The notes beneath the pieces were generated by a model. The model did not search any database, was not told where the DNA came from, and was given only the letters and a program-made list of their open reading frames with translations. DNA of 64,000 nucleotides, taken from NCBI RefSeq assembly GCF_003018115.1, contig NZ_CP027457.1, one strand, 5' to 3'. Below are positions 6,121 through 6,405 of the stretch, one piece after another. Numbering within the stretch: position 1 is the stretch's first letter; each line of letters starts with the position of its first letter. Source of the DNA: Escherichia coli. Lineage in GTDB: Bacteria; Pseudomonadota; Gammaproteobacteria; Enterobacterales; Enterobacteriaceae. The translations under genes and the position numbers were made by a program.

Positions 6121-6129
6121 TCACTATCA

Positions 6130-6156
6130 GCGCCGTGGTGTGAGGTACTACGGCGC
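6130..6156 (+). promoter_or_regulatory. Conserved hairpin (GCGCCGT / ACGGCGC) between the RHH gene and its partner, copy 1
   Basis: 7-bp stem; the surrounding ~65 nt are about 90% identical to the copy at 6803-6870. Confidence 0.5.
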
Positions 6157-6177
6157 ATTGCTTTACAGGGCAGTATC

Positions 6178-6405
6178 ATGACCAACAACACACTATCACC
6201 AATACAAGACACGCAAACGCAAGATGATGAAATCATCCGGCAAAGGCAGTCAGAAGCCTGCGCCAGACTTGAGGAAGAACTAACCAGAACAAAAATACCA
6301 CCACCAGCGCCGCGCTTAGTGCCACCAGAAAAATTTGCCCTTGAAGATTTTGTCGATAAATACCCACGGCGGCTTAAATCCGGCAAAAACCGACCGCCTG
6401 GCTGA
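6178..6405 (+). CDS. Hypothetical small protein (75 aa), partner of RHH module 1
   Basis: ORF track; shares N-terminal MTN and an FALEDFVDKYPRR-like motif with ORF 6856..7059. Confidence 0.5.
   Translation: MTNNTLSPIQDTQTQDDEIIRQRQSEACARLEEELTRTKIPPPAPRLVPPEKFALEDFVDKYPRRLKSGKNRPPG

What the first reader, a model, noticed from the sequence alone, without database searches (positions are those of the whole stretch)
6125..6192. Intergenic hairpin element conserved at nucleotide level between the two RHH modules
The ~65-nt segments at 6125-6192 and 6803-6870 are about 90% identical in DNA, more than the flanking coding sequence appears to be. Each contains a GC-rich hairpin (GCGCCGT...ACGGCGC) and the conserved stretch ATTGCTTTACAGG leading to the partner ATG. 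This suggests selection on an RNA structure such as an attenuator, processing site or translational control element.
Basis: seen in the sequence. Interest (0 to 1): 0.55.

Follow-up and report, generated by a model that had tools for sequence, protein, structure and literature searches.

The report
Conserved stem-loop between repressor and partner genes
A 45-base hairpin-containing spacer sits between a small repressor gene and its downstream partner gene in a phage-satellite island of E. coli; it is real and widespread, most likely an ordinary leaky terminator or RNA-stability hairpin that also serves as the junction where gene variants are swapped.

Summary
The cores 6125-6169 and 6803-6847 are 41/45 identical, while the flanking genes match at chance level in register (about 30%).

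The element lies in the 57-nt spacer between a ribbon-helix-helix (RHH) repressor gene and a small uncharacterised partner gene. The island is a PICI-type phage satellite (tRNA, integrase, AlpA-like, Icd-like, helicase). About 29% of complete E. coli genomes carry the element.

- All 38 distinct variants fold into a hairpin at the same place.
- The hairpin is stronger on the + strand in 25 of 29 variants.
- Most variants are followed by a U-rich tail.
- Covariation is not significant, and one common variant breaks a stem pair.
- Variation shows no codon periodicity, so coding does not explain the conservation.
- Different RHH and partner alleles reassort around the element.

Best reading: a cis-acting + strand RNA hairpin (leaky terminator or 3'-end stabiliser) that doubles as a recombination linker. 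It matches no Rfam family. Tests for sar-like, C4-like and upstream-ORF readings were negative.

More unusual than the hairpin: the opposite strand carries a stop-free frame of about 476 codons from the alpA-like gene to the icd-like gene. It has a ribosome-binding site but no amino-acid constraint.

The parts
5941..6120 (+). RHH gene 1 (YlcI/YnfO family, 59 aa)
   Evidence: ORF. NCBIfam NF041551, E = 2e-16. Variation among relatives is concentrated at third codon positions, 97 vs 47/42.
6121..6177 (+). 57-nt intercistronic spacer 1, which holds the element
   Evidence: Sequence. Covariance-model hit at 6122-6169, 77.7 bits. No codon periodicity in its variation.
6130..6156 (+). Hairpin copy 1: 10-pair stem (one G.U), loop GTGAGGT
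   Evidence: dG -17.8 on the + strand vs -12.4 on the - strand. Flagged as terminator-like on the + strand.
6157..6169 (+). Tail ATTGCTTTACAGG: U-rich stretch directly after the stem, ending in an AGG Shine-Dalgarno-like motif 8 nt before the partner ATG
   Evidence: Identical in both copies. 5 T in the first 8 nt.
6178..6405 (+). Partner gene 1 (75 aa, uncharacterised)
   Evidence: ORF. No Pfam or NCBIfam match. Only E. coli hypothetical proteins as homologues. Shares the C-terminal motif FALE.F..KYPRRLK..KNRPPG with other partner clusters.
6524..6569 (+). + strand terminator-like hairpin plus T-tract after partner 1. It is the second copy of the repeat at 5770-5818.
   Evidence: Repeat D2. 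Fold -23.9 kcal/mol, z = -3.0, followed by UUGUUUUUUGU.
6625..6798 (+). RHH gene 2 (Arc-like, 57 aa)
   Evidence: PHROG 228 Arc-like repressor, E = 5e-7; weak YlcI/YnfO match. Third-position variation 25 vs 1/0.
6808..6834 (+). Hairpin copy 2 (pair 7 mismatched, pair 10 C/A)
   Evidence: Covariance-model hit at 6800-6847, 71.4 bits. dG -12.2.
6835..6847 (+). Tail ATTGCTTTACAGG, copy 2
   Evidence: Exact match.
6856..7059 (+). Partner gene 2 (67 aa)
   Evidence: ORF. PHROG 21027, unknown function, E = 2e-12.
7122..7158 (+). Strong + strand terminator closing the cassettes. It is weak on the - strand.
   Evidence: Fold -19.8 kcal/mol, z = -5.2 on the + strand vs -7.3, z = -1.2 on the - strand.
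5736..7166 (-). ORF X: stop-free frame of about 476 codons, antisense to both cassettes and to the element. It starts 14 nt after the stop of the alpA-like gene and ends 10 nt after the icd-like ATG.
   Evidence: ORF list. 0 internal stops vs 12.5 expected in the + strand-noncoding parts, 0/3000 shuffles. Present in every related locus examined, median 1080 nt. Conserved SD and ATG in relatives. No codon periodicity.
5839..5890 (.). Three GTGTT(G/A)AACAC palindromes overlapping a leftward promoter-like site: presumed RHH1 operators
   Evidence: Repeats D6. Promoter-like site 5879->5851 on the - strand. Sequence.
6583..6626 (.). GGTAATTACC palindromes overlapping a leftward promoter-like site: presumed RHH2 operators
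   Evidence: Repeats D5 and I4. Promoter-like site 6631->6603, 10/12 matches.
5551..5748 (-). Icd-like gene, first gene of the leftward (replication) operon
   Evidence: NCBIfam NF033153, E = 5e-18. Third-position excess 68 vs 30/30.
7181..7387 (-). AlpA-like helix-turn-helix regulator
   Evidence: PHROG 66 and 2790, excisionase and transcriptional regulator. The counterpart in the related E. coli locus is annotated 'helix-turn-helix transcriptional regulator', and as 'AlpA family phage regulatory protein' in another genome. Third-position excess.

Best explanation
The element is a cis-acting RNA stem-loop in the + strand mRNA that carries a ribbon-helix-helix repressor gene and a small downstream partner gene. 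These form the regulatory cassette of a PICI-type phage satellite.

- Position: the stem starts 9 nt after the repressor stop codon. In most variants it is followed at once by a U-rich stretch (AUUGCUUU), and then by the partner's ribosome-binding site.
- Likely role: a leaky intrinsic terminator and/or a 3'-end-protecting hairpin. Either would make repressor mRNA outnumber or outlive partner mRNA, so partner expression is set by read-through.
- Second role: because the spacer is the only sequence shared by otherwise unrelated repressor and partner alleles, it is also the homology patch at which cassettes recombine. That exchange keeps it uniform.

Shown: the hairpin, its position, its + strand bias, the U-rich tail, the absence of coding constraint, and the reassortment of alleles. 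Inferred: termination or stabilisation, and its effect on partner expression.
For: - A hairpin forms at the same position in 38/38 distinct variants, dG -7 to -19 kcal/mol.
- The + strand fold is more stable than the - strand fold in 25/29 variants, mean -13.2 vs -9.5. The G.U at pair 8, which is C.A on the other strand, is kept in 32/38.
- Double changes occur at pairs 5, 9 and 10. Single-side changes are mostly G.U-type.
- The stem-to-stop distance is constant.
- 20 of 29 variants have at least 4 T in the 8 nt after the stem. The consensus scan flags copy 1 as terminator-like on the + strand only.
- The hairpin persists when the partner is replaced by unrelated downstream genes. It is absent when the RHH gene has no downstream gene.
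- Variation is not 3-periodic in the spacer, whereas the icd-like, alpA-like, RHH1 and RHH2 genes show clear third-position excess.
- Nine RHH clusters and eight partner clusters occur in many combinations around one element.
- It is present in 1593 of 5426 complete E. coli genomes, up to 6 copies per genome.
- Each cassette has its own much stronger terminator further downstream, which fits a weak internal one.
Against: - Covariation is not significant (18/500 and 67/500 shuffles reach the observed values). The variants are closely related.
- The common haplotype GAGGAACTCC, which includes the window's copy 2, breaks pair 7. The abundant variant GCGCCATAGTTTGAGGAACGCAGGCGC keeps only 5 outer pairs plus a short inner helix.
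- The loop and tail are as conserved as the stem, which structure alone does not explain.
- Several variants keep the hairpin but have no U-rich tail (ACAGGGTT, CAATCATA, AAAGAAGT), so termination cannot be its universal role.
- No transcript data were available.
Confidence: 0.5

Rival explanations
1. Pure recombination linker. The spacer is kept uniform only because it is the homology patch at which divergent cassettes exchange by homologous recombination or gene conversion. The palindrome is incidental or merely a break-prone site and has no RNA function.
For: - RHH and partner clusters reassort freely around it.
- The borders between near-identity and chance-level identity are sharp.
- Loop, stem and tail are equally conserved.
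- Covariation is not significant.
- Presence or absence of the hairpin-partner unit is bounded by short repeats of the CCACCAGC type.
Against: - A neutral 45-nt patch should have decayed, as its flanks have.
- The hairpin is retained in every variant, including ones with changed arms (the second copies in loci L130, L191 and L115).
- Stability is biased to the + strand.
- The hairpin is kept with unrelated downstream genes, and its distance from the stop codon is fixed.
Confidence: 0.2
2. The element works on the opposite strand. One version: it is the terminator of a short antisense RNA that covers the partner's ribosome-binding site, as sar RNA does in the arc-ant region of phage P22. Another version: it is a structure inside the ORF X mRNA.
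For: - The layout (Arc-like repressor gene, spacer, downstream gene) resembles P22 arc-ant, where a 68/69-nt antisense RNA pairs with ant mRNA (PMC12197685).
- In copy 2 the - strand hairpin is followed by TGATGTTTTTTAT.
- The - strand is translated or at least kept open across the element.
Against: - No promoter-like site on the - strand within or near the partner 5' end (inspection of both copies).
- The - strand hairpin is weaker in 25/29 variants, and pair 8 is a C.A mismatch there.
- The - strand tail is U-poor in most RHH stop-codon contexts.
Confidence: 0.08
3. DNA-level protein-binding palindrome, for example for the RHH protein, the partner or AlpA.
For: An inverted repeat GCGCCG...CGGCGC with conserved centre and flanks.
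Against: - The two RHH proteins have different presumed operators elsewhere (GTGTTGAACAC vs GGTAATTACC) yet share this element.
- G.U-type and double changes, together with the strand bias, fit RNA better.
- No second copy of the palindrome lies near any promoter in the window.
Confidence: 0.07
4. A small RNA processed from the transcript that acts in trans, like P1 C4 RNA or P4 CI RNA, on a target in the icd operon.
For: The island has an Icd-like gene, as in the P1 immI operon where C4 RNA acts.
Against: - No Rfam match, C4 included, at E <= 1 in 3000-10000.
- No complementary site for the loop or the tail anywhere in the 64-kb window.
Confidence: 0.05
5. Coding constraint. Candidates are a short upstream ORF ((G/T)TG...TGA overlapping the partner ATGA), stop-codon read-through fusing RHH to the partner (the spacer is open in that frame in both copies), or the ORF X peptide.
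For: - The spacer is 57 nt, a multiple of three, and is open in the RHH/partner frame in both window copies.
- A 13-codon frame ends in TGA overlapping the ATG.
Against: - Extra alleles are spread evenly over codon positions: 18/23/19 in the first set and 9/16/13 in the second.
- The upstream-ORF start codon is lost in several variants, and the abundant variant has an in-frame TAG.
Confidence: 0.03

Closest known systems
Intercistronic stem-loops and leaky intrinsic terminators that set differential expression within an operon, for example the papB-papA and malE-malF intergenic hairpins (from general knowledge)
   Same: A GC-rich hairpin directly after the stop codon of the upstream gene, followed by a U-rich stretch and then the next gene's ribosome-binding site. 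The stability is biased to the + strand.
   Different: - The U-tract is imperfect and is missing in some variants.
- The element is far more conserved than its flanking genes.
- It serves as a module junction in a mobile element.
- No transcript evidence exists here.
Phage P22 immI arc-ant region with sar antisense RNA (PMC12197685; details of the promoter from my own knowledge)
   Same: An Arc-like RHH repressor gene, then a short spacer, then a co-oriented downstream gene. The spacer is the regulatory hot spot.
   Different: - No antisense promoter was found.
- The hairpin is stronger on the sense strand.
- The partner is a 67-75 aa protein unrelated to Ant.
Phage P1/P7 immI (c4 RNA-icd-ant) and phage P4 immunity, where translation of a leader ORF decides whether transcription continues (PMC12197685 for c4; Rho-coupling details from my own knowledge: Biere et al. 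1992, Forti et al. 1999)
   Same: - An Icd-like ORF heads the operon.
- The long translated frame running into or abutting icd suggests the same logic, in which transcription depends on translation.
   Different: - No C4- or CI-like RNA was detected.
- The hairpin studied lies on the opposite strand from icd.
- The link to Rho is inferred and was not tested.
Conserved boundary sequences between exchangeable modules of mosaic temperate phages (modular-evolution concept; general knowledge)
   Same: A short patch of near-identity flanked by unrelated alleles that occur in many combinations.
   Different: Here the patch is also a well-formed, strand-biased hairpin at a fixed distance from a stop codon.

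Membership tests
Intrinsic (Rho-independent) terminator / attenuator | GC-rich stem-loop in the RNA of the transcribed strand | tested here: met
   10-pair stem in copy 1, dG -17.8. All 38 variants fold. The + strand is favoured in 25/29.
Intrinsic (Rho-independent) terminator / attenuator | Run of U immediately after the stem | tested here: inconclusive
   AUUGCUUU has 5 U in 8 in both window copies, and 20/29 variants have at least 4. Several variants have 1-3 only. The consensus scan flags copy 1 but not copy 2.
Intrinsic (Rho-independent) terminator / attenuator | RNA 3' ends generated at the site | not testable with these tools
   No transcript data were available. A full-text search for the sequence found no paper.
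P22 sar-type cis-antisense RNA | Promoter on the opposite strand inside or near the 5' end of the downstream gene | tested here: not met
   No promoter-like site on the - strand in 6170-6260 or 6848-6930. Manual inspection of both copies found none conserved.
P22 sar-type cis-antisense RNA | Terminator functional in the antisense direction | tested here: not met
   The - strand hairpin is weaker (mean -9.5 vs -13.2). Its tail is U-rich only in one RHH stop-codon context.
C4 / CI-type processed antisense RNA (Rfam C4 family) | Match to the family covariance model | tested here: not met
   cmscan of 3000-10000 at E <= 1 gives only a tRNA and two chance-level hits.
C4 / CI-type processed antisense RNA (Rfam C4 family) | Complementary target sites elsewhere in the element | tested here: not met
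   No match on either strand other than the two copies themselves, at up to 3 mismatches, for the loop region or the tail.
Any described RNA family (Rfam 15) | Score above or near a family threshold | tested here: not met
   No hit over the element.
Structured cis-regulatory RNA supported by covariation | Compensatory changes in excess of controls | tested here: inconclusive
   3 of 10 pairs have double changes and 91.8% of cells are paired. Shuffles reach these values in 67/500 and 18/500 cases.
Protein-coding sequence (upstream ORF, read-through, or ORF X peptide under selection) | Excess of variation at third codon positions | tested here: not met
   18/23/19 and 9/16/13 extra alleles by position in the spacer. 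The positive controls (icd-like, alpA-like, RHH1, RHH2) show a 2- to 25-fold third-position excess.

The most novel reading that the evidence does not exclude
The hairpin may be one component of an undescribed sense/antisense switch in Gram-negative PICI satellites.

- On one strand lie repressor cassettes: RHH gene, hairpin, partner gene, strong terminator.
- On the other strand, a ribosome-loaded but sequence-unconstrained reading frame of 170-650 codons (ORF X) bridges the alpA-like gene to the icd-like gene. It would carry AlpA-activated transcription through the cassettes and their terminators by keeping ribosomes on the RNA, giving protection from Rho and from hairpins.
- All + strand hairpins, including this one, contain G.U pairs. 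They are therefore strong on the repressor strand and weak on the ORF X strand.
- The RHH proteins would be the repressor that has not yet been identified for these islands.
Probability: 0.3. Interest if true: 0.75.

Novelty: new member of a known kind. Interest (0 to 1): 0.4.

Why it matters
- **Scale.** The element marks the regulatory cassette of a satellite family present in roughly three of every ten complete E. coli genomes. Related islands carry PerC-family regulators.
[quoted passage not shown] The cassettes around this hairpin hold RHH genes with palindromes that overlap the promoter-like site facing the replication operon. That gives concrete candidates for the repressor.
- **The hairpin itself.** It is the point at which the repressor's expression is uncoupled from that of an unknown partner protein, so it is a handle for reporter and mutational tests. 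It is also a practical marker: a 48-position covariance model finds every copy with no convincing false hits in 0.5 Mb.
- **Verdict on kind.** As a type of element it is ordinary.

Tried and rejected
- **Rfam scan** of 3000-10000 at E <= 1 found nothing over the element.
- **Scan of one genome per species** (298 Gb) with TGAGG-N14-GCTTTACAGG-N8-ATGA returned only two hits, in non-enterobacterial genomes with no related context, which I take to be chance matches. The exact form is thus absent from the species-representative genomes, and the scan was wasted.
- **Covariance-model search** of 86 loci plus the window found no more distant copies.
- **Metagenome scan** anchored outside the hairpin gave 9 new variants but no new compensatory pair.
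- **Upstream ORF** of 7 to 13 codons ending at the partner ATGA is rejected. The start codon is lost in several variants and there is no codon periodicity.
- **Stop-codon read-through fusion** of RHH to the partner is rejected. The abundant variant has an in-frame TAG and there is no periodicity.
- **sar-like antisense RNA** is rejected for lack of a promoter and a weaker antisense hairpin.
- **C4/CI-like trans RNA** is rejected for lack of a model match and of any target.
- **Resemblance of UUGCUUUACA to rrn boxA** (UGCUCUUUAACA) needs two deletions and is not kept in other variants. I did not pursue it.
- **REP/BIME** shows no similarity by eye.
- **Full-text literature search** for four 15-16-mers of the element returned 0 papers.
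- **Literature search for YlcI/YnfO** returned nothing on function.
- **Partner protein** has no Pfam, NCBIfam or informative PHROG match, and only E. coli hypothetical proteins as homologues.

Full report
**What is there**

Window 5400-9500 is one end of an integrated phage-satellite island. On the - strand it holds:
- a tRNA at 9347-9420, annotated tRNA-Pro in the closest E. coli relative;
- an integrase at 7884-9125;
- an AlpA-like helix-turn-helix gene at 7181-7387;
- further left, an Icd-like gene at 5551-5748 (NCBIfam E = 5e-18), which heads a leftward operon.

In the relative, that operon continues through DUF4222, a RepA-type helicase, a PerC-family regulator and a capsid-protease fusion. 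This gene set matches Gram-negative phage-inducible chromosomal islands (PICIs) as described in PMC6092414 and PMC11773190.

Between the alpA-like and icd-like genes, on the + strand, lie two cassettes 678 nt apart.
- Cassette 1: RHH gene 5941-6120 (YlcI/YnfO family, E = 2e-16), a 57-nt spacer, and a 75-codon partner ORF at 6178-6405.
- Cassette 2: RHH gene 6625-6798 (Arc-like, PHROG 228), a 57-nt spacer, and a 67-codon partner ORF at 6856-7059.
- Each cassette has its own palindromes: GTGTTGAACAC three times at 5839-5890, and GGTAATTACC at 6583-6626. These overlap a leftward promoter-like site.

**Check of the observation**

- The two spacers share a block that stands out sharply. In register, 30-nt windows score 26-28/30 inside the element and 3-12/30 in the RHH and partner coding flanks.
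Over the core 6125-6169 vs 6803-6847 it is 41/45 (91%).
- A 17-mer from the hairpin with up to 3 mismatches is expected 0.05 times in the window by chance. It occurs only at these two sites.
- Copy 1 forms a 10-pair stem (6130-6139 with 6147-6156, one G.U) with loop GTGAGGT, dG -17.8 kcal/mol. The 81-nt context folds at -24.3, z = -2.9.
- Copy 2 has a U/C mismatch at pair 7 and C/A at pair 10, dG -12.2, context z = -0.9.
- ATTGCTTTACAGG is identical in both copies and ends 8 nt before each partner ATG.

**Distribution and variants**

- BLAST of 6095-6200 finds the element in 1593 of 5426 complete E. coli genomes, up to six places per genome, nearly always next to a YlcI/YnfO gene.
- I collected copies in four ways: an exact 15-mer scan of IMG/VR, an RHH-protein-anchored scan of IMG/VR that does not constrain the spacer, a metagenome scan anchored only outside the hairpin, and a few E. 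coli loci.
- This gave 38 distinct versions of the 48-nt core.
- A covariance model built from them finds every copy at 43-78 bits and nothing convincing elsewhere in 0.5 Mb. In the window it finds only the two copies.
- A strict pattern scan of one genome per species found no true copy. The element therefore appears to be confined to accessory islands of a few enterobacterial lineages.

**Is it an RNA structure?**

In favour:
- Every variant folds into a hairpin at the same position, dG -7 to -19.
- The + strand fold is more stable than the - strand fold in 25 of 29 variants, mean -13.2 vs -9.5 kcal/mol.
- The G.U at pair 8, which would be a C.A mismatch on the other strand, is kept in 32 of 38 variants.
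- Pairs 5, 9 and 10 each show one double change (C-G to U-A, G-C to A-U, U-A to C-G). Six pairs show G.U-type single changes.

Against:
- The numbers do not exceed controls. 91.8% of cells are paired against 91.0% in shuffles (18/500 reach it). Three pairs with double changes is reached in 67/500 shuffles.
- The very common haplotype GAGGAACTCC breaks pair 7.
- The abundant variant GCGCCATAGTTTGAGGAACGCAGGCGC keeps only five outer pairs plus a short inner helix.
- Loop and tail are as conserved as the stem.

The structure is therefore compatible with the data and has a strand bias, but it is not proven. Structure alone does not explain the conservation.

**Not coding**

- The spacer is 57 nt and is open in the RHH/partner frame in both window copies.
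- A 13-codon frame also ends in a TGA that overlaps the partner ATG.
- Yet extra alleles are spread evenly over the three codon positions: 18/23/19, and 9/16/13 and 10/15/12.
- The same test gives clear third-position excess for the icd-like gene (68 vs 30/30), the alpA-like gene (55 vs 15/31), RHH1 (97 vs 47/42) and RHH2 (25 vs 1/0).
- The upstream-ORF start codon is lost in several variants, and the abundant variant has an in-frame TAG.

**Two sub-elements and a module junction**

- The hairpin goes with the 3' end of the RHH gene, always starting 9 nt after the stop codon. It stays when the partner is replaced by unrelated genes (second copies in loci L115 and L191; locus L148 has a different hairpin at the same place).
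- It is absent in loci where the RHH gene has no downstream gene.
- The tail AYYGYUUUACAGG goes with the partner-type genes.
- Nine RHH clusters and eight partner clusters occur in many combinations around the same spacer. For example, RHH clusters 0, 1, 3 and 5 each occur with partner clusters 0 and 1.
- The spacer is thus the crossover point of a mosaic, which helps explain its uniformity.

**Most likely mechanism**

- The data fit best a leaky intrinsic terminator and/or a 3'-end-protecting stem-loop in the + strand RHH-partner mRNA.
- The supporting features are a GC-rich hairpin directly after the RHH stop codon and an imperfect U-tract (5 U in 8 in both window copies; at least 4 in 20 of 29 variants).
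- The hairpin is also stronger on the + strand, and each cassette has a much stronger terminator downstream: 6524-6569 at -23.9, and 7122-7158 at -19.8, z = -5.2.
- Such an element would hold the partner below the repressor.
- Variants without a U-tract show that termination cannot be the only role.
- I put this reading at about 0.5.
- Rivals, in order: linker only, 0.2; opposite-strand role, 0.08; DNA-binding palindrome, 0.07; trans-acting small RNA, 0.05; coding, 0.03.

**Comparison with known systems**

- There is no Rfam match.
- The layout recalls P22 arc-ant with its sar antisense RNA (PMC12197685). However, no antisense promoter is present and the antisense hairpin is the weaker one.
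- The Icd-like gene recalls P1 immI with C4 RNA. However, no C4-like RNA or complementary target is found.
- I file the element as a new, undescribed member of an ordinary kind: an intercistronic hairpin or attenuator at a mosaic junction.

**What I noticed beyond the finding**

- The strand opposite the cassettes carries one frame with no stop codon from 7238 down to 5739, followed by the stop at 5736-5738.
- In the parts that are non-coding on the + strand there are 0 internal stops against 12.5 expected (0 of 3000 dinucleotide shuffles). In the coding parts there are 0 against 3.2 (P = 0.019 by synonymous-codon shuffling). The other two antisense frames have 39 and 27 stops.
- In every one of 131 distinct contexts of the element, and in 15 more RHH loci without it, the same property holds: at least 507 nt stop-free, median 1080, maximum 1959, against 168 and about 20 nt in the other frames.
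- The frame starts just after the stop of the alpA-like gene. In the window an ATG at 7166 lies 14 nt after that stop, behind TAGGG. Relatives have a conserved GGGGAG-type Shine-Dalgarno sequence and an ATG.
- At its other end the frame either runs in frame into the Icd-like domain or stops within about 30 nt of the icd-like ATG. In the window it stops 10 nt after that ATG.
- All four + strand genes share one frame, and the cassette period is 3 x 226 nt.
- Yet this frame shows no third-position excess where the + strand is non-coding: 44/45/41 and 16/17/13, and 29/26/30 in its first 32 codons. Openness and translation signals are conserved, but the protein sequence is not.
- The + strand hairpins are all weaker on this strand.
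- NCBI's annotation pipeline places 'Icd-like' and 'ash family' pseudogenes on this frame in relatives.
- AlpA is known to activate its own promoter and the gene downstream of it in EcCICFT073 (PMC6092414).
- My inference, untested: ribosomes translating this frame let the AlpA-driven transcript cross the repressor cassettes and reach icd and the replication genes. This is the logic known from P1 icd-ant and from P4 immunity (from my own knowledge). This context is more unusual than the hairpin itself.

**Verdict**

As a kind of thing it is ordinary, and the RNA-structure reading is plausible but unproven. Interest 0.4. The surrounding sense/antisense architecture deserves its own follow-up.

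Noticed in passing
window 5736-7238, - strand (likely start ATG at 7166): - A stop-free frame of about 476-500 codons lies antisense to both RHH cassettes, bridging the alpA-like gene to the icd-like gene.
- It has 0 stops against 12.5 expected in the + strand-noncoding parts.
- It is present in all related loci examined.
- Relatives have a conserved SD and ATG at its start.
- It shows no amino-acid-level constraint.
- In many loci it is in frame with the Icd-like domain.
   Followed up: partly
window 5839-5890 and 6583-6626: Each RHH gene has its own set of palindromes (GTGTT(G/A)AACAC three times; GGTAATTACC). They overlap leftward promoter-like sites at 5879->5851 and 6631->6603 that face the icd/replication operon. 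The RHH proteins are therefore candidates for the repressor not yet identified in Gram-negative PICIs.
   Followed up: partly
window 5699-5818 vs 6445-6565: The tandem unit also duplicates the start of icd (a remnant at about 6440-6500 on the - strand, sharing TACACACACAAAC) and a strong + strand hairpin at 5770-5818 / 6517-6565. The whole cassette, not just the RHH gene pair, is the repeated module. The second leftward promoter-like site now faces only the icd remnant.
   Followed up: partly
window 7122-7166: The strong + strand terminator (-19.8 kcal/mol, z = -5.2) is weak on the - strand (-7.3). It lies just 3' of the first few codons of ORF X, and its flanking U-tract covers ORF X codons 4-6. 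+ strand transcripts would therefore end exactly opposite the ORF X translation-initiation region.
   Followed up: partly
L002 2357-2950, L004 1834-3201, L207 1714-2127 and 2422-2791 (all - strand): NCBI's pipeline annotates long 'incomplete' pseudogenes named Icd-like, ash family or hypothetical protein on the strand opposite the RHH genes, and sometimes omits the RHH and partner genes. These calls appear to be ORF X.
   Followed up: partly
window 6290-6312, 7044-7058; loci L183, L194, L200, L205: Short repeats of the type CCACCAGC(G)CC occur before the hairpin, inside partner 1 and at the partner 3' ends (...PPG*/...PPA*). In loci without a partner gene, the RHH stop codon is followed directly by CCCACCAGC. 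This suggests the hairpin-partner unit is gained or lost by recombination at these repeats.
   Followed up: no
window 5941, 6178, 6625, 6856: All four + strand genes start at coordinates equal to 1 modulo 3. Both spacers are 57 nt and the cassette period is 678 = 3 x 226. In relatives where the period is not a multiple of three (685, 740), the antisense frame is split into two ORFs.
   Followed up: partly
locus L191 near 2941: A second hairpin of the same family follows a partner-type gene and precedes another partner-like gene. The element can therefore separate successive small genes, not only an RHH gene and a partner.
   Followed up: no
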